Shown here: positions 7,863-56,689 of the stretch, in pieces | Numbering within the stretch: position 1 is the stretch's first letter | Layout: each line of letters begins with the position of its first letter | Source: Escherichia coli | Lineage (GTDB): Bacteria; Pseudomonadota; Gammaproteobacteria; Enterobacterales; Enterobacteriaceae | NCBI RefSeq assembly: GCF_024502345.1 | Contig: NZ_JALDNN010000003.1 | DNA: 64,000 nt | Strand: one strand, 5' to 3' | Notes under the pieces: model-generated | The model's input: only the letters and a program-made list of their open reading frames with translations | What the model was told of the DNA's origin: nothing | Database searches by the model: none | Program-made: the position numbers and the translations under genes

Positions 7863-9455
7863 CTATTTATTGGTGAGATCTACGTTCCATGGCAGCAGTT
7901 CGGCCACTTTGTTGATGGGCCACTCCGGCAATACGCTCAGGATATGGCGAAGGTAACCCTCTGGATCGATACCGTTCAGCCTGCACGTTCCGATCAGACC
8001 ATACAGCAGGGCACCACGTTCACCACCATGATCACTGCCGAAGAAGATGTAGTTTTTCTTGCCCAGACAGACCGCTCGTAGCGCGCGCTCAGCAGCGTTA
8101 TTATCCGGCTCTGCCAGACCATCATCGCAGTAGTAACACAGGGCATCCCACTGGTTCAGTGCATAAGCGAACGCCTCGCCTAACCGGGATTTTTTCGACA
8201 GAGTGGCTCTTTTCTCCACCAACCAGTCATGCAGGGATATCAGCAACGGTTTACTTCGGGACCGTCTGGCGGCCAGCCGCTGAGATGCCGGAAGGCCGCG
8301 TATTTCCTCTTCTATCGCGTATAACTCACTGATGCGCTTCAGAGCCTCCTCTGCTGTGGCCGTCCGGGTGCTGATATAGACGTCATGGATTTTGCGCCGC
8401 GCATGAGCCCAGCATGCCGCTTCTGTCAACGGGCCACCTTCACGCTCTGCGCTGAACAACCTGTCGTACCCTGCGAAGGCATCTGCCTGCAGCACGCCAT
8501 GATAGTGCCGAAGATGTTGCTGAGGGTGTTTCCCCTGTCGGTCCGGTGAGAAGGCGAACCATGCCGCTGGCGGATCTGATGAACCCGCGCTTCTGTTATC
8601 ACGGACATATGTCCAGATACGCCCGGTTTTCGTCTTCTTTCTGCCCGGCGCCAGCACGGGCACCGGAGTGTCATCCGTATGCAGTTTGCGGCAGTCCATC
8701 ACGTAGTGGTAGAGGGCTTCATCCAGCGGGGCCATTAACCGGCAGCACGCATCCACCCAGTTGGAGAGCAGCGCACGACTCAGATCCACACCCTGACGGG
8801 CAAAGATTTCGCACTGGCGATACAGCGGCAGGTGTTCACAGTATTTGGCCGTTAACACGCGGGCCAGCAGACCCGGCCCGGCGATGCCCCGGTCGATAGG
8901 ACGTGAGGGCGCTGGCGCTTCAACGACGCAGTCGCATCGGGTACAGGCCTTTTTCACTCTGACCGTGCGGATCACTTTCAGGGCGCTGGAGACCAGCTCC
9001 AGTTGCTCCGCGCTGACTTCGCTGAGATAGGCCATATCACTACCGCAACCAGGACAGCTGGTTTCAGCTGGCTCCAGTCTGTTTATTTCGCGGGGAAGAT
9101 GTTCCGGTAACGGGCGACGATGACGGGACTGGCGCAACTGACGCGGAACCTGCTGATCATTGTCCCGGCCGTTGTAACGATCGCTTTGCTGCTCCTGCTG
9201 TTTCAGCAGGGCTTCGGCTTCTTCGACCTGCCGGCGTAGCTTTTCTGAACGGGTACCGAACAGCATTCGGCGCAGTTTTTCTATCTGAGCCCGCAGATAT
9301 TCTATTTCACGCTCTTCGTTCTCTATTTTCTCTTCTGCGCGGGCCAGCGCCGAACGCAGGAACGACTCAGTCTCAGCAACGAGACTGAGCTGGCTGTCTT
9401 TCTGGCGAAGCGCGTCTTCCAGCGCAGCGATACGGGCGAGATAGTCCTGACTCAT
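7863..9455 (-). CDS. IS66-family transposase TnpC (orf3)
   Basis: 530-aa ORF with N-terminal coiled coil, zinc-finger (CPGCG...CTRCDC) and DDE core typical of IS66 TnpC. Confidence 0.9.
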   Translation of the reverse strand: MSQDYLARIAALEDALRQKDSQLSLVAETESFLRSALARAEEKIENEEREIEYLRAQIEKLRRMLFGTRSEKLRRQVEEAEALLKQQEQQSDRYNGRDNDQQVPRQLRQSRHRRPLPEHLPREINRLEPAETSCPGCGSDMAYLSEVSAEQLELVSSALKVIRTVRVKKACTRCDCVVEAPAPSRPIDRGIAGPGLLARVLTAKYCEHLPLYRQCEIFARQGVDLSRALLSNWVDACCRLMAPLDEALYHYVMDCRKLHTDDTPVPVLAPGRKKTKTGRIWTYVRDNRSAGSSDPPAAWFAFSPDRQGKHPQQHLRHYHGVLQADAFAGYDRLFSAEREGGPLTEAACWAHARRKIHDVYISTRTATAEEALKRISELYAIEEEIRGLPASQRLAARRSRSKPLLISLHDWLVEKRATLSKKSRLGEAFAYALNQWDALCYYCDDGLAEPDNNAAERALRAVCLGKKNYIFFGSDHGGERGALLYGLIGTCRLNGIDPEGYLRHILSVLPEWPINKVAELLPWNVDLTNK

Positions 9456-9836: not shown

Positions 9837-10240
9837 CGGCTCCTCCCGGTCAGCTCGCGGATCAGCGTTTTCAGAAGTGCAGGTGATAAATCCCCGGACA
9901 GACGCAGGCTGGCACCGCCGACAGTCACCTCGCATGTCATGGCCTCGCGGCAGGCTGGAGCGGCGGGTTCATAGTGCGGCTCAGCATGGTGTGACAGGGC
10001 CATATCAGGCAGGACAACGGGGATAACAGAGTCTTGCTCTCTGATTGACCGTTGTATTTCATCGGGCAGAAGATGTCTGTAACGCTGGCGCCAGGTAAAC
10101 AGCAGATTGTCATTAATTCCATTATCCCGCGCCAACCGGGCAACACAGGCTCCAGGCTGATATGACTTTTCGACGAGAGCCAGCTTAAAGTCCATTGAGT
10201 AGGACGCCCGCGCCCTGCGGGGCTGAAGAGTGTTTGACAT
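9833..10240 (-). CDS. IS66-family accessory protein TnpA (orf1), HTH
   Basis: 135-aa ORF first in three-gene IS66 operon. Confidence 0.8.
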   Translation of the reverse strand: MSNTLQPRRARASYSMDFKLALVEKSYQPGACVARLARDNGINDNLLFTWRQRYRHLLPDEIQRSIREQDSVIPVVLPDMALSHHAEPHYEPAAPACREAMTCEVTVGGASLRLSGDLSPALLKTLIRELTGRSR

Positions 10241-41970: not shown

Positions 41971-42129
41971 CTACTTACCGGATTCGTAGTCCATCACAGC
42001 CGACACTTCCCGTGTACCGTCTTTCAGCCTCAGTTCGCAGAGCGAATTGCGCGTAAGCCAGGTGAATATCAACAGCGTAAGACATACTATCAATACGCAC
42101 AAAACAACGGGTTGGTTCGGCAGTTTCAT
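41971..42129 (-). CDS. hok: Hok/Gef-family type I toxin (52 aa)
   Basis: [52 protein letters not shown]; AAGGAG SD; ORF-track 100-aa version is an in-frame upstream extension. Confidence 0.85.
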
Positions 42130-42486
42130 GGCCTTCTTCTCCTTGCATTTAAGCGGGTAAGAGGCTACTCTGAATGTGACTAGCATACAGGGGCCTCGGG
42201 TTAATTTGAAAAAATTACTCGGGGCTTTCTGCTTTTTACCACAGTCAAACAGTGAATCTGCTGGCTGGGGCAAAAGCCTCCAGCACCGAGGTTATTATAC
42301 CACCCCGCCCCTTTTAAACGAACAGATCGTTCTCCTAAATATTTAATAAGTAAGTATTTCAGGTTTTGCTGCTTCGCAGGCTGTAACAGCAGGTGTCTGA
42401 CGTAATAACTGATTAAACAGACGGATTCGAATCTCAACACTCAACGACGCCAGCTCGCCTGTTCCCCCGCTTCTTTCCGGCTGTAA

Positions 42487-43930: not shown

Positions 43931-44254
43931 TCAGGCCACGGGTTCATTAATGAAGCGGCGTTGCATAAACAGGTACAGATAACCCTCTGGCGAGAACATA
44001 CAAAGATTCTCGGTAATACAGGCATCGAGGTACTTCGTGTCGCCAAGGAGTCGCTTAATGACAGCCAGCTGGTTAGCCGCAGACTGAATCAGCGGATAGC
44101 CATTCACGGCACGATGAATACCTGAGTGGAATAACGAACGAGCCTTTCCAATCTTTTCCCGGGTTGCGTCCATTTCCATATCGATAACAGACTGACGCGC
44201 AACATTAATAGCATTGCCGGATAACTCCGCGAAGCTAACCAGAGGCTTATTCAT
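43931..44254 (-). CDS. hypothetical protein (107 aa)
   Basis: ORF with SD-like GGAAGGAG upstream. Confidence 0.45.
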   Translation of the reverse strand: MNKPLVSFAELSGNAINVARQSVIDMEMDATREKIGKARSLFHSGIHRAVNGYPLIQSAANQLAVIKRLLGDTKYLDACITENLCMFSPEGYLYLFMQRRFINEPVA

Positions 44255-44439: not shown

Positions 44440-44943
44440 TTATTGATAGTGTTTTATGTTCAGATAATGCCCGATGACTTTGTCATGCTGCTCCACCGAT
44501 TTTGAGAACGACAGCGACTTCCGTCCCAGCCGTGCCAGGTGCTGCCTCAGATTCAGGTTATGCCGCTCAATTCGCTGCGTATATCGCTTGCTGATTACGT
44601 GCAGCTTTCCCTTCAGGCGGGATTCATACAGCGGCCAGCCATCCGTCATCCATATCACCACGTCAAAGGGTGACAGCAGGCTCATAAGACGCCCCAGCGT
44701 CGCCATAGTGCGTTCACCGAATACGTGCGCAACAACCGTCTTCCGGAGCCTGTCATACGCGTAAAACAGCCAGCGCTGGCGCGATTTAGCCCCGACGTAT
44801 CCCCACTGTTCGTCCATTTCCGCGCAGACGATGACGTCACTGCCCGGCTGTATGCGCGAGGTTACCGACTGCGGCCTGAGTTTTTTAAATGGCGGAAAAT
44901 CGTGTTGAGGCCAACGCCCATAATGCGGGCGGTTGCCCGGCAT
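44440..44943 (-). CDS. insB: IS1 InsB (normally expressed as InsAB' by -1 frameshift)
   Basis: [27 protein letters not shown]...; differs at several residues from copy 2. Confidence 0.95.
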
Positions 44944-45137
44944 CCAACGCCATTCATGGCCATATCAATGATTTTCTGGTGCGTACCGGGTTGAGAAGCG
45001 GTGTAAGTGAACTGCAGTTGCCATGTTTTACGGCAGTGAGAGCAGAGATAGCGCTGATGTCCGGCAGTGCTTTTGCCGTTACGCACCACCCCGTCAGTAG
45101 CTGAACAGGAGGGACAGCTGATAGAAACAGAAGCCAC
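44862..45137 (-). CDS. insA: IS1 InsA
   Basis: [43 protein letters not shown]... Confidence 0.95.
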
Positions 45138-45290
45138 TGGAGCACCTCAAAAACACCATCATACACTAAATCAGTAAGTTGGCAGCATCACCGAAAATAA
45201 AATAGAGAGAGTTTTCAATCCGCATGACTTTAAAAAAGACAATTTTTAGAAATAAGCCGGATAAAAAAATAGCTTTATCCGGCACTCATA

Positions 45291-46241
45291 TTACAACCAG
45301 TTCTTCCGCTTAAAGTACAGATACGGTGCCAGGCCCGCGAGGATCATAAAGATAATCGCGGCAGGGTAGCCGAAGCTCCACTTCAGTTCTGGCATAAACT
45401 CAAAGTTCATGCCATAGCTGGAAGCAACGAGCGTCGGCGGCAGGAATACCACGGATACCACCGAGAAGATTTTGATGATGCGGTTCTGCTCGATGTTGAT
45501 AAAACCCATTGCCGCCTGCATCAGGAAGTTCACCTTCTGGAACAGGGATTCGTTATGCGGCAGCAGGGATTCGATATCTCGCAGGATTTCACGCGCCTGC
45601 TCCAGTTGCCCACCCGGTAAACGCGCTTTACGCACCAGGAAGTTGAGCGCGCGCTGGGTATCCATCAGACACAGGCGAACTTTCCAGCCGATATCTTCCA
45701 GTTCCGCCAGCGTGGAGAGCGCCTCGTCGTACTCATCGCCCTGATGCCCTTCCATAATCACCCGGCTCAACTGCTCCAGGTCGCTATAGATATTTTCAAT
45801 TTCATCTGCCAACTGTTCGATTTTGGTTTCGAACAGATCCAGCAGCAACTCGTAGGCGTTACCGTCTACCATCGACTGGCTACGGGCACGCATACGATAC
45901 AGACGAAAAGCGGGCAGTTCACGCTCACGCAGAGTAAACAGACGACCATCACGGATGGTAAATGCCACAGTGGAGTTACCGGCGTGATCTTCCGCATCTT
46001 CAAAGAAGAAGAAGGAGTGAATATGCAGGCCGTCGTCGTCTTCAAAGAAACGTGCCGATGCTTCGATGTCTTCCAGTTCCGGGCGGGTTGCCAGGCTCTG
46101 GCCAAGTTCAGATTGTAAGCGCAGTCGCTCGTCGTCGTCCGGTTCGACAAGATCAATCCATACTGCATTTACAAGGGGTTGTGACTCTTCGACTTCCAGC
46201 CGGGTCAGTCGGTTATTTTCCAGTTGAAATGCGCTCAGCAT
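45291..46241 (-). CDS. corA: magnesium/cobalt transporter CorA
   Basis: [31 protein letters not shown]...[17 protein letters not shown]...YFKRKNWL, essentially identical to enterobacterial CorA; terminator hairpin GCCGGATAAA...TTTATCCGGC downstream. Confidence 0.95.
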
Positions 46242-46640
46242 GACCGGGACTCCCAATGCTTAAAATATCGGACAGTTCGGTGGGCACACAGAAACAAATT
46301 GGGTTTCAGACCATTAAACAGCCTGACTCAGCGCGACGGGAAAAATTGAGGTCGCTGACAACCGCTAAGGCTATCAGCAAAAAGGGATAGCCTTAGGAGT
46401 TGATCCTGGATGACAGGATAGTGAGCCAGTATCTACTGGGTGTGTCCAAGGCGAATGTCCTCTTAGAGTGATCGTGCGCGCATGTTACGCCAGCAAAATT
46501 TTGCCGTCAACACGCAACAGAACACCACAGAACAATAGTTGAACTTCGCGCTTTTTGGTACTCGTCAAGGTCGCTAACAGGATAAAAAAATCCCACATCC
46601 AGGACCTATAATGGCGCATCAGCTACTCATTGGTAAAGGA

Positions 46641-46940
46641 ATGATCACCTTGAATCTCAAACGGATTTTTCTCGCCCTCACCTTACTTCCCTTGTTTGCT
46701 GTTGCCGCTGATGATTGCGCACTCTCAGATCCGACGCTGACCGTACAGGCGTATACCGTTAATCCTCAAACAGAGCGGGTGAAAATGTACTGGCAAAAAG
46801 CCAATGGCGAAGCGTGGGGAACGTTACATGCTCTGCTGGCGGATATTAATAGTCAGGGTCAGGTGCAGATGGCGATGAACGGCGGCATCTTAAATTTGAC
46901 GGTTTTTGATATAAAATATAGAAAGAAGGAGGTTTTCTGA
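46641..46940 (+). CDS. signal-peptide protein (99 aa), possibly a truncated chromosomal gene at an island junction
   Basis: MITLNLKRIFLALTLLPLFAVAADD...; stop embedded in hairpin AAGGAGGTTTTCTGAATACCTCCTT. Confidence 0.4.
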   Translation: MITLNLKRIFLALTLLPLFAVAADDCALSDPTLTVQAYTVNPQTERVKMYWQKANGEAWGTLHALLADINSQGQVQMAMNGGILNLTVFDIKYRKKEVF

Positions 46941-46959
46941 ATACCTCCTTCACTGGCGC

Positions 46960-47166
46960 TCAGTTCGAGAATACGTTAACGCTGTACCGTTTACCGAGCA
47001 CCTCGGCAGTGGTATCGACAATTTTCTGAATATCATCGGCAATCGCGGGTTTACTGAATGCGACGGTGTGCAGTTCACCAGCCTGTTCCGCCGTCGCACC
47101 ATCATGAAAGCGGCTGGCATCGTAAAGCTGGACCCGGAGTGTCCGGGTATAATCGACATGGCCCAT
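46960..47166 (-). CDS. small hypothetical protein (68 aa)
   Basis: ORF in unidirectional array; C-terminal block resembles the two 74-aa paralogues. Confidence 0.4.
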   Translation of the reverse strand: MGHVDYTRTLRVQLYDASRFHDGATAEQAGELHTVAFSKPAIADDIQKIVDTTAEVLGKRYSVNVFSN

Positions 47167-47200
47167 TATTCCTCTCCTGTTCAGTCAGGCGCTATACGCG

Positions 47201-47425
47201 TTAATAATCACTTTCTTCCGGTTGCGGCTGGGTGACAAACTGGTACTTCACCCCATTAGGGACGCCAACGGCTTTTGCTACAGATTCACACAGCAGCGAC
47301 AGGTCATTCAGAGTCATCGGATATTCGATATCGACGGAATATAAGGCCCCGGCGTTCTCGGCCTCTTCGATATTTTTATACTGGGCACTGAAAATGGCTA
47401 TGGTAGAGATTTCAAGGTTATGCAT
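47201..47425 (-). CDS. small hypothetical protein (74 aa), paralogue of 53302-53526
   Basis: Shares 19-residue block YPMTLNDLSLLCESVAKA(V/L) with 53302-53526 product. Confidence 0.5.
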   Translation of the reverse strand: MHNLEISTIAIFSAQYKNIEEAENAGALYSVDIEYPMTLNDLSLLCESVAKAVGVPNGVKYQFVTQPQPEESDY

Positions 47426-47478
47426 GAGTCAGTCCTTGTTAATAAAAAAGAAGCCACCGTAAGGTGGCTGAATAAAGG

Positions 47479-47685
47479 TTAATGGACCTGGCTGGCCTTT
47501 TTTTCCGCGTTCTTGTTGTAATCAACGCGGGCAATAACGACGGCAGCGGCCAGGAGTGCAGCGAGACCGCCGTAGAATACTGGTCGGGAGATATCGACGA
47601 ACATATCGCTCAGGTTATCAACGCCGAGGAGAAATACGCAGATAATGACGATAAAGCGAACAGGTTTGCTGTAGAACAATTTCAT
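47479..47685 (-). CDS. small membrane protein (68 aa)
   Basis: Two hydrophobic helices. Confidence 0.4.
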   Translation of the reverse strand: MKLFYSKPVRFIVIICVFLLGVDNLSDMFVDISRPVFYGGLAALLAAAVVIARVDYNKNAEKKASQVH

Positions 47686-47884
47686 CAGGAGCTATCCTTC
47701 TGGGGTGAAATGACACCAGCATTACACCATATCAGATGCCAATTTTTTTTCGGTAACGGGCCTATTTTGACAAGAAAAAAGACACATCAGGGAGGCAATG
47801 ACGAGAGTATTTTCGAGGTGCCTATGGCCTGTCACTTCCTGAACTCAGGAAAAGAACGATGCTGTAGAACACAATCGAAATATA

Positions 47885-47900
47885 GAAAAGTAACTTTTCC
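47885..47900. promoter_or_regulatory. palindromic motif copy R4 GAAAAGTAACTTTTCC
   Basis: Intergenic, 200 bp upstream of 47685 gene start. Confidence 0.45.
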
Positions 47901-48080
47901 ACCGACGATATGTCCGGCGGCAAGTTATTCTTATGCAGGGCACAAATCAGTGAATTGGGTTCCGCGCGGGAAAGTCAAAAAAACTTGCATGTCGTTCCGG
48001 ATGCCAGGCGACGTAGCACATAGATTTGGGCCTGTGTAAGCGGGGAGCTGGGACGTTTTGTGTCTGCCATAATGTTCCTT

Positions 48081-48341
48081 TTATAACGAGGGCTGTCCGG
48101 CTGACAGATTAGCGGACAGACCTGAAAATAACGTGCATATCCAGCACCTGGCTGAATCCCTGAGCGAGGCAAATGCCTTTACTCTTCCCCCTCCGACAAC
48201 AACAAAAATGCGTTGAGCTTCCTCTTCGGCCTGTTCATCAGTCATGCTTTTCTCGCGGATGTGCGAAGTAAACAGGCTCCAGTTTGCAGCGATAAAATCA
48301 CGTACTTGATGCATTTCCGAATTCTCAGCGTCAATAACCAT
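48081..48341 (-). CDS. hypothetical protein (86 aa)
   Basis: ORF in array. Confidence 0.4.
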   Translation of the reverse strand: MVIDAENSEMHQVRDFIAANWSLFTSHIREKSMTDEQAEEEAQRIFVVVGGGRVKAFASLRDSARCWICTLFSGLSANLSAGQPSL

Positions 48342-48429
48342 TTTTAGTGTCCTGTGTCTTAAATAAGGTCCGCCCTGTTAATAGATCAGGGACGGACTGT
48401 TTAAGCGAGATAGCCAGCCTGTGCCGTGG

Positions 48430-48936
48430 TTATCCATTCACCAGAGTGATTTTTGTGGGGGATACTTTGATACTAAAAGCATTAAATTTCTTTTTAAGAG
48501 CGAGTTCAAACCACGCCACCGGGATAGAGACCGAACTATCATCGCCGCCCAATGCCTCCTCTGCCTCGTCATACCATTCATCATCAACAGACGGATTCAT
48601 CCCACGGGCATAGACAACCGTATCACGGGAAACAGGGGTTCCATCCAGAGATGCATTGGTAATCAGATAGACGCCATGATCTTTTACCAGAAGGATCTGT
48701 GGAGTCAGGCGGGCCGGGTCAATGTGTTTGGATGATGGCCAGAAAATTCCCCCCGTCTGGTTCATTTCCACTTCTGTTTTGCCCTCTTCGTTGAGAGGAG
48801 TACCGCCGGGGTAATTTGACGGTTCAAAAAGCTGTTCAATGGTTGCATTGAACCGTTCCGCCGAGCGGAGTTCTTCGAGGAGCTTTTTTACCCCAGCAAT
48901 TTCGAATGTTAATGTGGTCATAAACTTATTCTCCAT
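48430..48936 (-). CDS. hypothetical protein (168 aa)
   Basis: ORF in array, acidic. Confidence 0.5.
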   Translation of the reverse strand: MENKFMTTLTFEIAGVKKLLEELRSAERFNATIEQLFEPSNYPGGTPLNEEGKTEVEMNQTGGIFWPSSKHIDPARLTPQILLVKDHGVYLITNASLDGTPVSRDTVVYARGMNPSVDDEWYDEAEEALGGDDSSVSIPVAWFELALKKKFNAFSIKVSPTKITLVNG

Positions 48937-49234
48937 CCGTAGTCAGCATCAGATATCGGGTGGCCAGTAGCAACTCTTTGACGTCAGCAGTTGAAACCTC
49001 CCCTTTGCCTTCTACCGCGTCCTGCAAACGCTGACGCGTCGCCTGAATCGTCTCTGACGACAGTGACGCCAGTTTGCTCAATACAGCGTTAGCTTTTTCC
49101 ACAGCGGGATACAGGGACTCTGAGGTGGTATTGTCTACATCGTTATCGAAAAACAGGTCAGACTCCATATTAATATTGTCTTCGAGCCAGCTGGTAAGAA
49201 TATCAAGTAAAGACATAACTTTATTAATCTGCAT
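48926..49234 (-). CDS. hypothetical protein (about 102 aa)
   Basis: ATG at 49234 with GAGGG SD; ORF-track N-terminal extension unlikely. Confidence 0.45.
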   Translation of the reverse strand: MQINKVMSLLDILTSWLEDNINMESDLFFDNDVDNTTSESLYPAVEKANAVLSKLASLSSETIQATRQRLQDAVEGKGEVSTADVKELLLATRYLMLTTDGE

Positions 49235-49442
49235 TTTTCTCGCCCTCGGTTGATGTAATTCAAATATAACAAACTGTCTCGTCTGGCTAATAACCCAGAA
49301 TGAAAAAAATAAGCGATTTATTAGATAGGACTGAATTAAATTTAAATGGAGTGCAGCCGGACTCAGTTTAAAAACACTCCGCGCTAAAGGCAGAAAAAAG
49401 CCTTCCGAAAGGGAAGGCTTATGCACTACATCAGGAAAAGAA

Positions 49443-49823
49443 CTATCGCTGCTTCTGGAGCGCGATATACGCTGCGAAAACAGCTACCAACACCGTCATG
49501 AAGTAAACTAGATATGAACCAGATTGCCAGACATTAACGCCAAAAAACGATATTAATTTTCCGTCCGGGATAACAGAAAAAATCAGGTTCCAGAATCCAA
49601 CCAGAACGACCTGAGAGATAATCATTTTACCAAGCGCTCCCAGTTCATGAGCCGCATACATTGCAGCCATGACAAATGTCAGAGCTACCACAAGCAGCGC
49701 AGACAAAGCCACAACCGAAATGCTCAGGCCGACGGATGTAAACAGAATGGCATCTTTAAAAGTCAGACCTGTAAAACCCCAGATCAGAATGGCTAAAATG
49801 AAAAACATAAGGATAAATTTCAC
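49443..49823 (-). CDS. integral membrane protein (126 aa, 4 TM)
   Basis: Hydrophobic throughout. Confidence 0.5.
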   Translation of the reverse strand: MKFILMFFILAILIWGFTGLTFKDAILFTSVGLSISVVALSALLVVALTFVMAAMYAAHELGALGKMIISQVVLVGFWNLIFSVIPDGKLISFFGVNVWQSGSYLVYFMTVLVAVFAAYIALQKQR

Positions 49824-49908
49824 TAGAATTGCGTCCCTCTTTCGGTGGCAGAGTGTCGGTCAGGATGCCTGTGGCGAGGCAACTACAGACAGAATTTAAC
49901 ACAAAAAA

Positions 49909-50193
49909 TTAATTACAAATCCGTTCACAGGCCTGTTTCAATGATTCTTTGGTATGGCTATGTGCGGCCTGATTTAACAATGCCCGGATGTGTAGTTCAT
50001 CATGACCGTCAGCTACAAAGAGTTTGATTTTACTTTCAAGGCGGCTCATGGCTTCGTAGAGTTTTGCCTCTTTATTGTTCTTCATAAAGCGAAGAATGTA
50101 ATCCGCAATAATATGCTCTGGTGGCGTTTTAATTTCACGGCAGCGATTGCTTGTCATGAGTTTTTCCTCAAGTTTGTGGCAAAATGGCACCAT
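49909..50193 (-). CDS. hypothetical protein (about 94 aa)
   Basis: Internal Met start MVPFCHKLEEK... Confidence 0.4.
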   Translation of the reverse strand: MVPFCHKLEEKLMTSNRCREIKTPPEHIIADYILRFMKNNKEAKLYEAMSRLESKIKLFVADGHDELHIRALLNQAAHSHTKESLKQACERICN

Positions 50194-50194
50194 C

Positions 50195-50422
50195 TCATTT
50201 AAGCCACCCTTTTCCGGTTGTATAATTAATTTGACCTGCTTTACACAGCGCCAGCAAACGGCGATCAAGAATATGCGACGGTTGCGGATTGCTTTCCCCG
50301 GCTGCAATCCGGTGACACTCTGCTTTGATCTCTCCGGCAAATAATGTCGAGAACGGCGTAGGAACTGGGGTAAGAATTTCGTTGAGTGCCCTGTCCAGCG
50401 CCAGATACTTATCCATATTCAT
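50195..50422 (-). CDS. hypothetical protein (about 75 aa)
   Basis: Internal Met start MNMDKYLALDRALNEIL... Confidence 0.4.
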   Translation of the reverse strand: MNMDKYLALDRALNEILTPVPTPFSTLFAGEIKAECHRIAAGESNPQPSHILDRRLLALCKAGQINYTTGKGWLK

Positions 50423-50591
50423 GTCCTTGCAGGTAATTGAATGGATGGGATTTAAATTTATTATACTGAATCGAGTTACTAAACTAATATCCTTCAGGAT
50501 GAAGAAAGGAATCATCCACCTTCAGTATGTATTCGACATATAGGACACGTCTCTAAAATTTTTCGCGTTTTCGCGATTTACACCGACAGGC

Positions 50592-50945
50592 CTACCAGTC
50601 ACCACCTTCGATATGAAGTTGCGTCGCAGAAACAGCCACCATTTCCTGCATTGGCTGGTCATGCTTGTTATGACTACTCCCAAGCAGTAGGCTCACCTTG
50701 CCGTTAGCGGAATAAAACATAGCATCAGGAAAATGCTCTCTGACTTCCCCCAGCAATGTGTGCATCGACTGAGTCAGTCGGTAGAATCGACGTGCGGCAG
50801 TCGGCATTGCATCATCAAGGAGATCTCCGGCGTCGCCGTCCCCGCTGTTTATGAAACTCAGTACCTTATCTTCGTCCATTCGAACCTCTTTTTCAGTCAT
50901 GTCATATATATCCATTGAGATATCTGTCAGCCTGAGCAACGACAT
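50592..50945 (-). CDS. hypothetical protein (117 aa)
   Basis: ORF in array. Confidence 0.45.
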   Translation of the reverse strand: MSLLRLTDISMDIYDMTEKEVRMDEDKVLSFINSGDGDAGDLLDDAMPTAARRFYRLTQSMHTLLGEVREHFPDAMFYSANGKVSLLLGSSHNKHDQPMQEMVAVSATQLHIEGGDW

Positions 50946-50960
50946 CAGGCTGACCTTCGC

Positions 50961-51569
50961 TCACCCGGTAATAACGATGGCCTGTTCCAATTGTGGCTGG
51001 CGATCCCCCCGCAGCGCTACCGACTCCTGGAGGCGTGCGGAAGGCATCGTCATTGCCTTAAACCCCTCATCCCGCGAACGCACCAGCATCCCCCACGAAT
51101 GGGTTTCACAGACATCGTTCTCGAAATTGGGTTCGGTCGACAGCAGTGATTCCATCTTCGGTTCGATGTGTACCGGCGCAATGTTTTTATAAACAGGGTG
51201 AACACGACACTGTTCAGACGCTTGTGCTCGGTAGCTCCCTTGCGCCAGCAGCACGTCATGGGAAACCAGGTCATAATCTGTATCTTCGACAAAAGTCTTC
51301 AGGGTGTGCGTTATTTTGCCGAATCCTTCGATATTCCAGACGGACACCATCGTAAACTCTTCAAACGCACGGGGACTTTTGACCAAAAATCCATTCAGCG
51401 CCCTACGCCCCTTCAGCATCCCCACCAGGTATTGCTTGTTGGGATAAGGGCGCATCGCAACAAGGTCATTACCAGTCAGGCGTAGCGACAGTTCCGGGAC
51501 GCTTACGGAATCCAGCGTGCAAAGATTTCCCATCGGATGCAGGATTTTTGGTACAAGGTGCAAAAACAT
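50961..51569 (-). CDS. hypothetical protein (202 aa)
   Basis: ORF in array. Confidence 0.5.
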   Translation of the reverse strand: MFLHLVPKILHPMGNLCTLDSVSVPELSLRLTGNDLVAMRPYPNKQYLVGMLKGRRALNGFLVKSPRAFEEFTMVSVWNIEGFGKITHTLKTFVEDTDYDLVSHDVLLAQGSYRAQASEQCRVHPVYKNIAPVHIEPKMESLLSTEPNFENDVCETHSWGMLVRSRDEGFKAMTMPSARLQESVALRGDRQPQLEQAIVITG

Positions 51570-51599
51570 CGGTATTCTCCTCGTTTATTAAGCCTTCAA

Positions 51600-52136
51600 T
51601 TATTGTGCCGTCGCCTGATGTATTTCGAACCAGAAGACAACCGGCTTTTCCGTGACTTCAATTAACCCAAATCGCTCTGCGGTTCTGAAGTTGACGCTGT
51701 ATGCCCTGGCGCGTTCTACCTGGCGGCTTATTTCTTTCCTCATGCCTTCAACACTTAATGCACCTTTAAAGAGATTGCAGGGGGCGCAAGCCGGAAAAAG
51801 ATTTTCGATTGCATGCAGTTCAGGGTGCATGACCTTACCGGTACTTCGAGCCCGGTGTGTCACTCGACTTCCAGCGGGGGCTCTGACCATTTCAAAATCC
51901 CGCCTCACCGGTTCAACATGATCGGCATGCCAGCCTTTTTCCGGCAAAGGACAGCCGCAGTAGGCACACCGACCGCCAAATTTCAAACGCAGTTCGGCTC
52001 GTTGCTCTTTGGATATTTTATTTTTTGGTTTTGAAAATCGCCCATCATCAGATTCAACCTTCGGGAGGAGTTCTGAAAAATTGGGTAATTCGATTACTGC
52101 GCCTTTGTTATTTAGAACTTTCACCGGACCTCCCAA
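51600..52136 (-). CDS. HNH endonuclease-domain protein (178 aa)
   Basis: CAYCGC...HADHVEP...N...ACAPCN = C-x2-C / H-x-D-H / C-x2-C HNH signature. Confidence 0.75.
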   Translation of the reverse strand: MGGPVKVLNNKGAVIELPNFSELLPKVESDDGRFSKPKNKISKEQRAELRLKFGGRCAYCGCPLPEKGWHADHVEPVRRDFEMVRAPAGSRVTHRARSTGKVMHPELHAIENLFPACAPCNLFKGALSVEGMRKEISRQVERARAYSVNFRTAERFGLIEVTEKPVVFWFEIHQATAQ

Positions 52137-52154
52137 CCATATTAAGACGATTTT

Positions 52155-52466
52155 TTATTTATTTTCCTGAATTAGTTTTCGAATTTTAATCAGGTGTGGT
52201 CGGCTTAATTTGCATAGCTGTTCGGTCGCGGCATCCAGAGTGGGAAATACATGGGCCTCATTAATATCCAGTGTCCAGTATTTCGCTTTACCTTCTCCCA
52301 GATCAGATTCAAAGTAATTCCGCTTTACCCCAATCTGCTTTGGTCTTCCATTAATTCTGACGATTTCATGCCGCTCGTCGAAGATAAAACCCTCTCCGAC
52401 CAACGTCAGGAGGACAAAAGGGCCCTCGGCCTTTTGCGTACCCAGCGAACTCATCTCATTATTCAT
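52155..52466 (-). CDS. hypothetical protein (103 aa)
   Basis: ATGA-coupled to upstream gene. Confidence 0.45.
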   Translation of the reverse strand: MNNEMSSLGTQKAEGPFVLLTLVGEGFIFDERHEIVRINGRPKQIGVKRNYFESDLGEGKAKYWTLDINEAHVFPTLDAATEQLCKLSRPHLIKIRKLIQENK

Positions 52467-53146
52467 ACGACCTCCCCGGTAATACGCTTAAAGTTGACGA
52501 CCCAGACCCACGGGTTGGCCTGCCAACTGTCCTCGCCGTACGTGTTTTTCCAGAGGCTGCGGAAGCCAAGAAAGTGCTTATCGCCAAGAACACAACATTC
52601 TGTTGGTGCGCCTTCAGCTTTGGCATCTTCCTCGCTGATGGTATTTAACCGCTCTACCCGCAAATCGGTAATTTCCAGTGCAATACGGCTGGCCCAGCGA
52701 GGCATATGGATTGAAGGTGTCCACGCACCTTCGAACTTCATATTTTCGGTACGAGGCTTCCAGTCGGCCTCATCAGGGATCGACCACAGCCCATAATCCC
52801 CCGACCGCTGTTCGCAGCTCGCCCGGTAAATGCGGGCTGCTTCAGTCCTGTCCATCACGATGTTGTCATTCCAGTCCACCGCGCACGCATCTTCATTCCC
52901 GAGCAATGAAAACGCCTCACGGACCGTAATGCGGTCGCCAACTACGCCGTACGGACAAGGCCGAAGCGCCGAGTATGGCTGGGTCCCTGTTGGAAGCCAC
53001 CAGTCATGCGTGTGCCCGCGATGTCGCGGTGTTTGCGCAGGCCTTATAGACCATTCATCCGAACTATATTGAGGCTTTATAATCCGCCGCGTCTGTGTTT
53101 TCTGATCTGCCAGAATTGCCCGGACCATTTCATCATTAAAAAGCAT
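52463..53146 (-). CDS. phage-type ASCH/PUA-like protein (tentative)
   Basis: N-terminus MLFNDEMVRAILADQKTQTRRII resembles common phage ASCH-domain proteins. Confidence 0.5.
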   Translation of the reverse strand: MLFNDEMVRAILADQKTQTRRIIKPQYSSDEWSIRPAQTPRHRGHTHDWWLPTGTQPYSALRPCPYGVVGDRITVREAFSLLGNEDACAVDWNDNIVMDRTEAARIYRASCEQRSGDYGLWSIPDEADWKPRTENMKFEGAWTPSIHMPRWASRIALEITDLRVERLNTISEEDAKAEGAPTECCVLGDKHFLGFRSLWKNTYGEDSWQANPWVWVVNFKRITGEVV

Positions 53147-53301
53147 TCCACGAGTCTTCACTGTGCTGACTCCTTTCACACATGGTTCACACATTGAGAG
53201 GCCTATCCCTCTTTATCAGCCAGGCATACCGAAACTGTCGGTAGTTTTACGGGAACGGGCAACTGCCCCCCTACCTGATAAAGTGGTGTTCTCCCCCAAA
53301 A

Positions 53302-53526
53302 TTAATCGTATTCCCCATCCACTACCGGCTCAGTCGTAATTTCATATTTCACTCCGCCGGGTACATCCAACGCTTTAGCGACGGACTCACACAGCAATGA
53401 CAAATCATTCAGGGTCATTGGGTATTCAACTTCCAGGCTGTGCAGTGCATTGGCGCTGGCAGCAGCAGCCTTGTCAGCATGACAGGCATTAAAAACGAAA
53501 ACGGTGGTTTTTTCTTGAATAGGCAT
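53302..53526 (-). CDS. small hypothetical protein (74 aa), paralogue of 47201-47425
   Basis: ...EYPMTLNDLSLLCESVAKALDVPGGVKY... Confidence 0.5.
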   Translation of the reverse strand: MPIQEKTTVFVFNACHADKAAAASANALHSLEVEYPMTLNDLSLLCESVAKALDVPGGVKYEITTEPVVDGEYD

Positions 53527-53612
53527 AGTGCAATCCTCTGAATAATTAGCCCTGTGATCAGGGCGGTTTTTGATTAAATTTAAATGTTCGTTTTCAATAA
53601 TTAGTGAATCTG

Positions 53613-54077
53613 TTAATCGGGTTGTGACTTATCATTTTCTCCAACCGAAGTGCTGTCGAGAAATGACCATTCTTGTTTGGGGCTTTTATATAATGCACTA
53701 GCCTCAGTACTCATCCACGACTCACAGGCTTTATAAGTCATGCCTTCCTCTCTAACGCGGTCCTTAAAATACGCCCAGGCTTGCAGATCAAGCGGCTGAT
53801 ACTCTTTCAGCGACTGGTCAAGCCTTTCCTTCCAGATTTTCTTCCGATGAGTAAAATGAGGAAAAGCCAGGAATGCATAACTACCTGCAACAAAAAAAAA
53901 GAACAGGAGTCCGCCCCATAGAGAATGTTTGAAAAACACCAGTCCTGGGAAAATCCATGCCACAATGGCAACAAATAAAAGAAGGTGCTCCTTCCCAGTA
54001 GGTTTATTAAAATGCCAGGAAATTGCAATACACTTTAATTTACTAAAGTGATTTTGTTTCTCCTTAATATCGGTCAT
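53613..54077 (-). CDS. membrane protein (154 aa)
   Basis: Two long hydrophobic segments. Confidence 0.5.
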   Translation of the reverse strand: MTDIKEKQNHFSKLKCIAISWHFNKPTGKEHLLLFVAIVAWIFPGLVFFKHSLWGGLLFFFFVAGSYAFLAFPHFTHRKKIWKERLDQSLKEYQPLDLQAWAYFKDRVREEGMTYKACESWMSTEASALYKSPKQEWSFLDSTSVGENDKSQPD

Positions 54078-54123
54078 ATATCAGTCCTTACTTATAAAAA
54101 AATGGTTATTATTAGTCTGATGT

Positions 54124-54137
54124 AAAAGTTACTTTTC
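54124..54137. promoter_or_regulatory. palindromic motif copy R5 AAAAGTTACTTTTC
   Basis: 47 bp upstream of 54077 gene start. Confidence 0.45.
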
Positions 54138-54259
54138 AAAACAGTCCCTTTAACGAATTCCGCACCTGCGCTCATTACAACACACACCATTCGGCGCTTT
54201 TTCCGTTAACGGGGCTATTTTCACGTTTTTTGCACGTATGTCTGATTTTGCTGGTGGGC

Positions 54260-56689
54260 TCACGCCAGCAGGCGGACCATACGTTTCAACAGAGGCCTTA
54301 ACAACGCCGCCGTCCTCTCCCGGCATTCATCCACATGCCGGAACCCCGTCTTTTTCGAAGACTGGGGGCCGGATAACATCCGCAGCTCCCAGATGACTTC
54401 CCGTAAGGTTCCTTCGCGCTCCGGCGAAATACACCCGGCTAATGTCTCCAGAAAGCGTTTTCTTACGGCCCGGTAATACAGACGTTCTTCCGGTTGCTGT
54501 GACGAAATCCGCAGGTTACAGAGGGTCAGGACAGCGTCAAGAGTCCTTGCCTTCAGTTCGTCTCCCGTCCGGGCCAGATGTAGCTGTTGTTCTGTCTCCA
54601 GTTGCGTCGTTATCCACCCCCCCAGAGGGGTTTTGTTGTAGGTGTGCAGTGCCACACAGGCCGCAACACAACACCAGAAGCGCAGTTTCTGCCGCTGCCC
54701 CCGCAGTTTGCGGGCTACGAGCAAGCGATAATCGCTGTCGGTCAGGATCTTGAAACGGCGGCTGGCGAGCAGAGACGGCAGCGGCGTCTGGTCGTTAATG
54801 CCAAGACGTGAATAGGCCTGCCCGCGTTGAGCGAGTCGATGGTACACCGCACCTTTCCCCCGCGAAATTCGGACGGCGCCGTATCTAAGCAGGTACTGTG
54901 CCGCCGCCACAGGGGTAAACTCACCGTCAGACACACGCTGGCGTAATCCGTCATATTCATGCCAGATAATCCAGGATGCCGTGTCTTCATCGACCGTCAG
55001 CTCATCCTCTTCTTCGAATGCAACGATGTTCAGGCCTTCCCCGCTACTCATCAGACTGCGGGAAGCTCGCTCATCCTCCCGACCGTCAAAATAGGCTATT
55101 TCGGATGACGGATCGGACAGCCCGTCAAATGACGTCCCGATACGGCCTTCCGGCAACTTCATCCAGCGTGGTGCTGGCATCGGCGTGCGGGGTACTGGTT
55201 GCATAGCTGGCTCATCGTCGAGAAGATCCAGTGCCCCCCCTTCCCACACCTGGCGGTAAAGTTCAATGGCACGAAATGGGCGCGGGTTAAAGCAATGCAG
55301 TGACCAGAGAAAGTCGATATGCAGCACGTTAGCCTCCTGCACCAGTCGAAACTGCGGCTCCGACATGCGGCGGTTATGCGCGGTATCTTCGATCTCGCCT
55401 GAAAGTAACTTTTCATGCACCGCTGCGGCCCGCTGAGCCTCCACGTAATCGAGGCTGCAACAGATATGGAACAGTCTTTCGGTCAGGGACGACGAGAACA
55501 CATTGGGCTGAAGACGCACATACCCGCCCTCAAACACTTTGCGTCCGATATAATCCCGAAGGCTCCAGTCGTACTGAATTTTGGTCAGGAAACGCTGAAG
55601 GCGGTTGAGACCAGCCTGGTAGCCGTACTTCTCAGGGTCAGTGCGGAGTAAGGTTTCCATCGAGTGATCAATGCCGACGGCGCAGCATAGCGAGCATCCA
55701 TAGCGAGCGCCGCAGGCAGAAGACCGGACAGTGGATTTCTCCGGCGTCCAGATACATTCCCCGGTCGCGTCTTTGTAAAGCGTGGCGAGGCTGAAGTTGT
55801 CCGGCAAAAAGCTTGGCAGCGGAAATCGCGCCAGAGAACCACAGGCCATCAGAAATGACCAGATATCCTGTGCCCGCCACTCTTTCACCGGGTACAGTTC
55901 GCCGCCGTGCTCCGTGAGCGAGACGCTGTCCGCCTGCCCGCCCATTCTTAGGATGTTGTCTGCCCGACGGGCGCTCTCATCATCGCGGGAACCCAGCATC
56001 AGGCACACTTTGTTGCGGACAGAAGCAGGTGCATTTTTCAGATAACGGGCTTTGGCCTGGCGCAGTGGAGAACGCTTTAGATCTGTAGCGCATTGACGCG
56101 TAGAAGAATTTGTCCAGGTTGGAAGTCCACGCCCGGTCAGAATGCGTCCGACCCAGCTCTGGGTCATGGACGGGCGGGCCACAAGGACGGTCAAAGGCAG
56201 TTCTTGTTCGGCAATAAAGGCTCTGAGCTGGCTGAGAACCTGCGTGGCCTGATGATGCATCTCAGGGTTTTCAATCAGGGTGTCAGACATCTGAATGAAG
56301 TGGTGCTGGCTGACGTTCGACCCGTTTCGTACTGCACGGATCAAGGCCATAAGGAACAAGTGCAGTAGCGAGTGAGAGTCTTTCCCGCCGCTGTAGCCGA
56401 CGCACATGGTCCAGCCTTCGGTAATCGCATGATAAATGGCACTGGTTGCCGTCGTCACGCGCGAAGCGAGACTGATCGGCTCACCGGCATCAGTATAATT
56501 CAGATCCGCATCGGTCTTCAGTGTCTGCCAGACATCGCCCCATTTATCCTGCGTCAGAATGGCAGCGTTAGCCGCCTCAGAAAATTGAATTTCTGAGGGT
56601 AATTCAAGGAATGTTTCTTTCATTTCGATATACATATTATTTCCTGAATTTGGCTTTCGCTGTATTGTCGCGATATTTATTAAATCCAT
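54260..56689 (-). CDS. large PP-loop ATP-pyrophosphatase (PAPS-reductase / DndC-like) domain protein, 809 aa
   Basis: PP-loop GYSGGKDS near residue 100; Cys cluster ACGARYGCSLCCAVG; long C-terminal extension of unknown function. Confidence 0.75.
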   Translation of the reverse strand: MDLINIATIQRKPNSGNNMYIEMKETFLELPSEIQFSEAANAAILTQDKWGDVWQTLKTDADLNYTDAGEPISLASRVTTATSAIYHAITEGWTMCVGYSGGKDSHSLLHLFLMALIRAVRNGSNVSQHHFIQMSDTLIENPEMHHQATQVLSQLRAFIAEQELPLTVLVARPSMTQSWVGRILTGRGLPTWTNSSTRQCATDLKRSPLRQAKARYLKNAPASVRNKVCLMLGSRDDESARRADNILRMGGQADSVSLTEHGGELYPVKEWRAQDIWSFLMACGSLARFPLPSFLPDNFSLATLYKDATGECIWTPEKSTVRSSACGARYGCSLCCAVGIDHSMETLLRTDPEKYGYQAGLNRLQRFLTKIQYDWSLRDYIGRKVFEGGYVRLQPNVFSSSLTERLFHICCSLDYVEAQRAAAVHEKLLSGEIEDTAHNRRMSEPQFRLVQEANVLHIDFLWSLHCFNPRPFRAIELYRQVWEGGALDLLDDEPAMQPVPRTPMPAPRWMKLPEGRIGTSFDGLSDPSSEIAYFDGREDERASRSLMSSGEGLNIVAFEEEDELTVDEDTASWIIWHEYDGLRQRVSDGEFTPVAAAQYLLRYGAVRISRGKGAVYHRLAQRGQAYSRLGINDQTPLPSLLASRRFKILTDSDYRLLVARKLRGQRQKLRFWCCVAACVALHTYNKTPLGGWITTQLETEQQLHLARTGDELKARTLDAVLTLCNLRISSQQPEERLYYRAVRKRFLETLAGCISPEREGTLREVIWELRMLSGPQSSKKTGFRHVDECRERTAALLRPLLKRMVRLLA

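What the first reader, a model, noticed from the sequence alone, without database searches (positions are those of the whole stretch)
47201..53526. Paralogous 74-aa proteins sharing a YPMTLNDLSLLCESVAKA core, plus a 68-aa relative
47201-47425 and 53302-53526 encode same-length proteins with a near-identical 19-residue block and divergent N-termini; the 68-aa product at 46960-47166 has a similar C-terminal pattern. Small duplicated, diversifying proteins in a mobile-element array may be inhibitors or immunity-like factors.
Basis: seen in the sequence. Interest (0 to 1): 0.35.

Follow-up and report, generated by a model that had tools for sequence, protein, structure and literature searches.

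The report
Three small paralogous IncHI plasmid proteins
Three related genes for tiny acidic proteins of unknown function sit in the conserved backbone of a large IncHI1 resistance plasmid; they are real, old and well conserved, but nothing yet shows what they do.

Summary
A (47201-47425) and B (53302-53526) are 74-aa paralogues, 57% identical (E 1e-22), sharing an identical 19-residue block, EYPMTLNDLSLLCESVAKA. C (46960-47166, 68 aa) is a distant third member: a profile built without it finds it at E 3e-8.

The window matches the IncHI1 plasmid backbone (pHCM1, 99.9%). The duplication is ancient. Synonymous sites are saturated and all three copies are under purifying selection (orthologue dN/dS 0.06-0.29), so "diversifying" is wrong. 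About 1,260-1,300 IncHI-type plasmids carry the family, typically as two A/B-type copies plus C.

A and C always form an operon with a 2-TM 67-68-aa membrane protein. B follows a solitary DndC-like gene. A lineage-specific G+C hairpin precedes every A/B-type gene.

Function is unknown. My best guess (about 0.3) is a small acidic protein-binding factor for plasmid establishment or anti-defence, with A and C possibly paired. Interest is modest.

The parts
47201..47425 (-). Paralogue A, 74 aa, net charge -8, pI 4.1. It is the middle gene of the TM-A-C operon.
   Evidence: ORF and RBS. RefSeq WP_000551715, annotated as hypothetical. AF2 fold beta-alpha-beta-alpha-beta, pLDDT 75. dN/dS 0.06 against the L010 orthologue. 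Charge.
53302..53526 (-). Paralogue B, 74 aa, net charge -8, pI 4.4. It lies downstream of the DndC-like gene and a 154-aa membrane protein, and upstream of an ASCH-domain gene.
   Evidence: dN/dS 0.23-0.29. In IncHI2 it directly follows the DndC-like gene.
46960..47166 (-). Paralogue C, 68 aa, a distant member with net charge -2. It is the last gene of the TM-A-C operon.
   Evidence: Same beta-alpha-beta-alpha-beta topology in the fused model. dN/dS 0.13. Found in 1,263 plasmids.
47479..47685 (-). 68-aa basic protein with two predicted transmembrane segments. It is the first gene of the TM-A-C operon.
   Evidence: Hydropathy. Homologues sit in the same position in L003 (E 2e-7), L005 (E 4e-6), L010, IncHI2 and L011. 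dN/dS 0.16.
47452..47469 (-). G+C hairpin followed by a U-run (terminator-like), between the TM gene and A, about 20 nt before A's RBS.
   Evidence: Hairpins of different sequence occupy the same place in five other lineages.
46925..46951 (-). Terminator-like hairpin immediately after C.
47721..47729 (-). TGGTGTAAT, an extended -10-like element about 35 nt upstream of the TM gene start, matched by TGATGTAAT in IncHI2. Its role as a promoter is inferred only.
   Evidence: Alignment of upstream regions. The consensus scan did not flag it because position 2 is G.
53549..53564 (-). G+C hairpin about 20 nt upstream of B's RBS.
53613..54077 (-). 154-aa protein with two predicted TM segments, upstream of B. 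It is not detectably related to the 68-aa TM protein and is absent in IncHI2.
54260..56689 (-). Solitary DndC-like (PAPS-reductase family) 809-aa gene. It is the conserved upstream neighbour of an A/B-type gene in all lineages examined.
   Evidence: Pfam PAPS_reduct. PADLOC DndC E 2e-37. Synteny.

Best explanation
A, B and C are an ancient, lineage-restricted family of small (62-79 aa) soluble proteins with a beta-alpha-beta-alpha-beta fold, encoded in the IncHI plasmid backbone. A and B are strongly acidic; C is only mildly so. Shown: they are real genes under purifying selection. All three are co-retained in roughly 1,260-1,300 IncHI1, IncHI2 and related plasmids. A and C always sit together behind a 2-TM 67-68-aa membrane protein gene as a discrete unit of promoter-like gap, TM gene, hairpin, A, C and terminator. 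B, or the single A-type copy in other lineages, sits just downstream of a solitary DndC-like gene. Inferred: the proteins act by binding another protein rather than by catalysis or DNA binding. The reasons are their small size, a net charge of -8 in A and B, the absence of any catalytic motif, and a surface helix kept identical in A and B despite saturated synonymous change. A and C probably pair as a heterodimer of paralogues. Their job would be plasmid establishment or counter-defence in a new host, that is, neutralising a host factor. This fits the surrounding unidirectional array (hok/sok, RelE/ParE, DndC-like, HNH, ASCH, DUF3085, DUF957 and DUF905; relatives also carry an orphan methyltransferase, a Lar-like gene and a GmrSD_N gene). 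The hairpin upstream of each A/B-type gene would set their expression relative to the upstream gene.
For: Paralogy. Purifying selection and age. Co-retention: an A query finds 1,300 plasmids with 2,519 places, and a C query finds 1,263 plasmids with the same host breakdown. Conserved TM-A-C module and DndC-like synteny in six lineages. Acidity. Same fold for A and C, and a fused A-linker-C model with pTM 0.66 and domain pLDDT of 80-92 against 78-85 for A alone. Array context and orientation toward Tra1, mobI and the relaxase gene in pHCM1. Anti-restriction-type neighbours in relatives. A published analysis found no known anti-defence system in PTU-HI1A plasmids, so unknown ones are expected (bioRxiv 10.1101/2025.04.03.647016).
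Against: There is no homology or fold match to any characterised inhibitor or anti-defence protein. Only one of the five fused models was confident (mean pLDDT 73, 63, 52, 45, 43), and no interface could be inspected. L003 and L011 carry a single A-type copy and no C. It is not established that the array lies in the leading region: mobI, the MobH relaxase gene and traD lie between the presumed oriT and the array, and MOB-H plasmids show no leading-region anti-defence peak. The role of the membrane protein is unexplained. No expression data were available.
Confidence: 0.3

Rival explanations
1. The TM-A-C unit is a small addiction or exclusion-type module. The 2-TM peptide would be a membrane-active toxin or exclusion factor, and A and/or C the cytosolic neutralisers.
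For: A small hydrophobic 2-TM protein is strictly coupled to A-type genes in six lineages. The array also holds hok/sok and RelE/ParE.
Against: The TM gene comes first and is followed by a terminator-like hairpin. That would give less A and C than TM protein, the opposite of what an antitoxin needs. B has no TM partner in IncHI2. There are no Pfam or PADLOC hits to GhoT/GhoS, Hok or other toxin families.
Confidence: 0.15
2. The small proteins are accessory subunits of the neighbouring DndC-like enzyme, for example a carrier, specificity or regulatory partner in a plasmid DNA-modification pathway.
For: An A/B-type gene lies within two genes downstream of the DndC-like gene in every lineage examined (and the window). 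DndC in Dnd systems works with small partner proteins (established knowledge of DndA-E).
Against: The whole block, including the 268-aa and 150-aa genes upstream, is syntenic, so adjacency is not specific. DndC-like genes occur in 2,651 plasmids against 1,300 for the family, and IncC pYR1 has no family member or TM67 relative next to its copy. A and C lie 6 kb away in IncHI1 and IncHI2. The strong negative charge of A and B argues against DNA binding. There is no C-terminal Gly-Gly, and the only cysteine is not conserved across the family. There is no DndE Pfam hit.
Confidence: 0.12
3. They are small acidic chaperone-like proteins for a plasmid-encoded partner, for example a protein exported through the conjugative type IV secretion system or the adjacent membrane proteins.
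Confidence: 0.08

Closest known systems
Small acidic anti-restriction or anti-defence proteins of plasmid establishment regions (for example ArdA-type DNA mimics and PsiB-type host-factor binders)
   Same: They are small and strongly acidic. They are encoded in a unidirectional array of small genes on a conjugative plasmid, next to toxin-antitoxin and DNA-modification-type genes.
   Different: No sequence or fold similarity was found. At 74 aa the protein is too small to mimic a long DNA stretch as ArdA does. Leading-region location is unproven for IncHI. The genes are coupled to a membrane protein gene.
DndE and other small partners of DndC in DNA phosphorothioation
   Same: A small protein is encoded just downstream of a DndC-family gene.
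   Different: There is no DndE Pfam match. The proteins are acidic, whereas DndE is DNA-binding. No dndA, dndB or dndD genes are present. The DndC-like gene occurs widely without this family.
GhoT/GhoS-type pairs of a small membrane toxin and a ferredoxin-like antitoxin
   Same: A small membrane peptide gene lies next to a gene for a small alpha/beta protein.
Uncharacterised backbone families in the same array (DUF3085, DUF957, DUF905, DUF6012)
   Same: They are conserved plasmid and island ORFs of unknown function in the same block. DUF3085 was reported as the factor most enriched in broad-host-range plasmids, with function unknown (PMC12826799).
   Different: Those families have Pfam definitions and a wider distribution. 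The A/B/C family has no family model and is confined to IncHI-type plasmids.

Membership tests
Any curated protein family (Pfam-A, NCBIfam, PHROGs, PADLOC) | Score above the family threshold | tested here: not met
   No hits for A, B or C, apart from sub-threshold noise such as tify at 12.9 bits against a cut-off of 27 and PHROG E-values of 0.01 or weaker.
The A/B/C family itself, as defined here | 62-79 aa; motif A-x-x-A-G-x-L, then a strand, then [ST]-x-[ND]-D-hydrophobic opening helix 2; beta-alpha-beta-alpha-beta fold | tested here: met
   Alignment A3. HMM hits to all three window ORFs only. AF2 topology for A and C.
DndE (partner of DndC) | DndE Pfam domain, about 110-130 aa, basic DNA-binding surface | tested here: not met
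   No Pfam hit. Length 68-74 aa. Net charge -8 for A and B and -2 for C.
ThiS/MoaD-type sulfur carriers | Beta-grasp fold and a C-terminal Gly-Gly | tested here: not met
   The C-termini are ...ESDY...GEYD and ...VFSN. The predicted topology is beta-alpha-beta-alpha-beta.
Leading-region anti-defence genes (Samuel et al. 2024, PMC11541004) | Located in the first-transferred region next to oriT and encoded so that the T-strand is the template | not testable with these tools
   In pHCM1 the array is transcribed toward the Tra1 region, which holds mobI and the MobH relaxase gene. The direction of transfer in IncHI1 could not be established here. About 10 kb of transfer genes lies between the presumed oriT and the array.
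Leading-region anti-defence genes (Samuel et al. 2024, PMC11541004) | Demonstrated inhibition of a defence system | not testable with these tools
   This needs an experiment.
Membrane-toxin/antitoxin pairs (GhoT/GhoS, Hok-like) | Match to toxin or antitoxin families, with antitoxin expressed in excess | tested here: not met
   No Pfam or PADLOC hits for the TM protein or for A, B or C. The hairpin after the TM gene would lower downstream expression.
Type III secretion class I chaperones (CesT/SycH-like) | Significant fold match to the alpha-beta-beta-beta-alpha-beta-beta-alpha dimer, about 130 aa | tested here: inconclusive

The most novel reading that the evidence does not exclude
The A/B/C family, perhaps together with the small membrane protein, is a previously unrecognised class of plasmid counter-defence or establishment factor specific to IncHI plasmids. 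That would help explain how IncHI1 plasmids, in which no known anti-defence system is detectable, establish efficiently in new Enterobacterales hosts.
Probability: 0.15. Interest if true: 0.6.

Novelty: new member of a known kind. Interest (0 to 1): 0.3.

Why it matters
IncHI1 and IncHI2 plasmids carry multidrug resistance in Salmonella Typhi and in Enterobacterales from people and farm animals. How they establish themselves in new hosts is poorly understood. One published analysis found no recognisable anti-defence system in IncHI1 plasmids (bioRxiv 10.1101/2025.04.03.647016). This family is kept in about 1,300 sequenced plasmids, usually as three copies, and is confined to this plasmid group. 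That makes it a concrete and cheap candidate for deletion and interaction experiments. If it proves to be only a housekeeping accessory, it is simply one more uncharacterised backbone family.

Tried and rejected
- **Family libraries.** Pfam, NCBIfam, PHROGs and PADLOC scans of A, B and C gave nothing.
- **Profile search of PDB sequences.** Nothing below E 0.5.
- **More distant relatives.** An exhaustive HMMER search of 1.84 billion representatives found 21 hits. A profile search of 5.8 billion proteins found 84. All are close relatives, nearly all from large contigs, and every source name given is an Enterobacterales species.
- **Distant lineage in PLSDB.** The L005 lineage was not found by blastn or tblastn.
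- **Homology between the two membrane proteins.** The 154-aa protein is not related to the 68-aa TM protein.
- **Gene conversion as the cause of the identical block.** Rejected because synonymous sites in the block are saturated.
- **Positive or diversifying selection.** Rejected.
- **Obligatory partnership with DndC-like.** Weakened by the IncC context and by the plasmid counts.
- **Known RNAs in the module.** Rfam finds only sok, elsewhere in the window.
- **Literature.** Searches for the protein accessions and two guessed pHCM1 locus tags, and for IncHI leading-region data, found nothing specific.
Full report
**1. The observation**

All three ORFs exist at the stated coordinates, but on the minus strand. 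The plus-strand translations of these coordinates contain stop codons.

- A is window 47201-47425 (-), 74 aa.
- B is window 53302-53526 (-), 74 aa.
- C is window 46960-47166 (-), 68 aa.

A and B align without gaps at 57% identity over 63 residues, E 1e-22. They share an identical 19-residue run, EYPMTLNDLSLLCESVAKA.

The similarity ends at the CDS borders. Overall nucleotide identity is only 58%. Inside the conserved core, synonymous differences are saturated (pS 0.94) while non-synonymous differences are rare (pN 0.07). The block is therefore kept by selection on the protein. It is not a recent copy, a product of gene conversion or low-complexity sequence.

BLASTP finds no match between C and A. 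C does match two distant family members, P0059 (E 1e-10) and P0058 (E 1e-7). A family HMM built without C retrieves it at E 3.2e-8 from all 1,164 window ORFs. There is no fourth copy in the window. Each gene has a Shine-Dalgarno-like sequence before an ATG.

**2. Where it is**

Window 46600-54300 is 99.9% identical to pHCM1 of Salmonella Typhi CT18 (IncHI1; MOBH relaxase, MPF_F). It is also about 99.7-99.9% identical to many E. coli and Salmonella IncHI1 plasmids. RefSeq annotates the three genes as hypothetical proteins (WP_000551715, WP_001122308, WP_000510222).

They lie in a long run of small minus-strand genes. The run includes:

- hok/sok and a RelE/ParE toxin;
- a solitary 809-aa DndC-like protein (PADLOC DndC, E 2e-37);
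- an HNH endonuclease and an ASCH-domain protein;
- DUF6012, DUF957, DUF3085 and DUF905 proteins.

In pHCM1 this run is transcribed toward the Tra1 region, which contains mobI, the MobH relaxase gene and traD.

**3. Anatomy and comparison across plasmids**

A is always flanked the same way. Upstream is a 67-68-aa basic protein with two predicted TM segments (window 47479-47685). This protein is homologous across lineages, E 2e-7 and 4e-6. Downstream is C.

The TM-A-C trio occurs in:

- IncHI1 (the window);
- an 85%-identical plasmid typed IncHI1B/IncP (L010);
- IncHI2 (L014);
- a distant lineage known only from assemblies (L005-L008).

In the window the trio looks like a self-contained unit, with these parts in order:

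- a roughly 400-bp non-coding gap holding an extended -10-like element, TGGTGTAAT (47729-47721), matched by TGATGTAAT in IncHI2;
- the TM gene;
- a terminator-like hairpin at 47469-47452;
- A, then C;
- a terminator-like hairpin at 46951-46925.

In three other lineages (L003, L005-8, L011-13) the order is 268-aa gene, 150-aa gene, DndC-like gene, TM67, A-type gene. In IncHI1 and in L010, the site after the DndC-like gene holds an unrelated 154-164-aa 2-TM protein plus B. In IncHI2, B follows the DndC-like gene directly.

So an A/B-type gene always lies close behind the DndC-like gene. The wider block is also syntenic, however, so this adjacency is not specific to the pair.

**4. An unexpected regularity**

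Every A/B-type gene is preceded, about 20-30 nt before its start codon, by a short G+C-rich hairpin. The hairpin sequence differs between lineages (sequences read).

There is no room for a promoter between the hairpin and the RBS. A and B must therefore be expressed by read-through. In IncHI1 and IncHI2 the hairpin before A is followed by a U-run and resembles an intrinsic terminator. I interpret it as an attenuator or an RNA-stability element. This is inference only.

**5. Evolution**

The family is very small. It has 51 clusters by single-sequence search and 84 by superfamily profile, out of 5.8 billion proteins. It has 21 of 1.84 billion representatives. Every source name given is an Enterobacterales species, and nearly all hits come from large contigs.

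In PLSDB, A-type sequences occur in 1,300 plasmids at 2,519 places, about two per plasmid. C occurs in 1,263 plasmids with the same host breakdown. The carriers are mostly conjugative plasmids.

The A/B split predates the IncHI1/IncHI2 divergence. dN/dS between orthologues from IncHI1 and the 85%-identical L010 plasmid is 0.06 (A), 0.23 (B), 0.13 (C) and 0.16 (TM). For B, the comparisons with IncHI2 give 0.27-0.29.

The genes are therefore real, old and constrained. They are not diversifying.

**6. Structure and properties**

AlphaFold2 predicts a beta-alpha-beta-alpha-beta domain for A (pLDDT 75). C shows the same topology in the fused model. The most conserved segment is helix 2 and its N-cap.

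A and B are strongly acidic, with net charge -8 and pI 4.1-4.4. C is mildly acidic.

A fused A-linker-C chain with a four-row paired alignment gave pTM 0.66, with domain pLDDT up to 92 in the best model. The other four models were poor (mean pLDDT 63, 52, 45, 43), and the interface could not be inspected. I treat A-C pairing as a hypothesis and not as a result.

**7. What it most likely does**

*Shown:* this is a conserved, expressed-looking, three-member family with a fixed operon partner and a fixed neighbourhood.

*Inferred:* the proteins act by binding another protein. They are too small and too acidic, and they lack the conserved catalytic-type residues, to be enzymes or DNA binders. The one cysteine is not conserved across the family. 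The helix kept identical in A and B points to a shared partner.

The surrounding genes are of the kind found in plasmid establishment and anti-restriction islands. Relatives add an orphan Mrr_N-type methyltransferase, a Lar-like gene and a GmrSD_N gene. A recent analysis found no known anti-defence system in IncHI1 (PTU-HI1A) plasmids and suggested that unknown mechanisms exist (bioRxiv 10.1101/2025.04.03.647016).

My best guess, at about 0.3, is a small acidic binding factor for establishment or counter-defence, with A and C possibly working as a pair.

Three rivals remain:

- a membrane-toxin or exclusion module (0.15), weakened by the gene order and the hairpin;
- accessory subunits of the DndC-like enzyme (0.12), weakened because DndC-like genes occur in 2,651 plasmids, including IncC, without this family, and by the negative charge;

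The remaining probability is "something else".

**8. Comparison with what is known, and novelty**

The sequences are already in databases as hypothetical proteins. No family model, publication or function was found. The finding defines a new small family and its operon. It does not reveal a new kind of system. I file it as a new member of a known kind: an uncharacterised small backbone gene family on a conjugative plasmid and a candidate establishment factor.

Whether the array is truly a leading region could not be determined here. The direction of transfer in IncHI1 is not known to me, and about 10 kb of transfer genes separates the array from the presumed oriT next to mobI.

**9. Verdict**

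Interest is 0.3. The family is solid, specific to clinically important plasmids and easy to test, but no evidence for a mechanism exists yet.

Noticed in passing
window 44440-46880: An IS1 element plus a chromosomal corA-ysgD fragment is inserted immediately downstream of paralogue C's terminator. Among the plasmids listed, only pHCM1 and three E. coli plasmids (YZ_2_2, ETEC4077, ETEC4079) share the junction; the other listed IncHI1 matches start about 281-291 nt into window 46600 onward.
   Followed up: partly
window 42127-42288 (-): sok antisense RNA of a hok/sok system (Rfam RF01794, 89 bits). It is the only Rfam hit in the 64-kb window.
   Followed up: no
window 54260-56689 (-): A solitary DndC-like (PAPS-reductase family) 809-aa gene with no dndA, dndB, dndD or dndE nearby. 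Relatives occur in 2,651 PLSDB plasmids, including IncC, Aeromonas, Pseudomonas and Burkholderia plasmids. Its role on plasmids appears to be uncharacterised.
   Followed up: partly
window 47452-47469 and 53549-53564; L014 about 9957-9976 and about 4764-4777; L003 about 4444-4468; L005 about 7937-7964; L011 about 8956-8977: A G+C-rich hairpin lies about 20-30 nt upstream of every A/B-type start codon in six diverged lineages. The sequence differs in each lineage but the position is the same. Its function is unknown: attenuator, stabiliser or processing site.
   Followed up: partly
Database variants P0017, P0019, P0020, P0024, P0045-P0051: Many database versions of A and B carry C-terminal frameshifts that begin at or near the GVPGG/GAPGG spot. 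One variant (P0024) is seen on 15 contigs. This could be sequencing error at a G-run or a recurrent real frameshift.
   Followed up: no
L001 9364-9586 (ETEC4077 plasmid): In this otherwise 99.9%-identical plasmid, paralogue C is split by a frameshift into two pieces.
   Followed up: no
window 1-21387: An accessory region holding a citrate utilisation cluster (dpiB, citF, citT), an IS66 transposase gene and a DNA cytosine methyltransferase gene. Across three aligned pieces covering 86% of window 1-25000, it is 100% identical to E. coli plasmid NZ_LR890350.1. It is not IncHI1 backbone.
   Followed up: no
window 43931-44254 (-) and L005 9113-9466: A 107-117-aa protein with a shared ...ENLCMFSP.G.LYLF... 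motif follows the TM-A-C module, at varying distance, in the window, L010 and the distant L005 lineage. This shows that the IS1-corA insertion split an otherwise conserved gene order.
   Followed up: no
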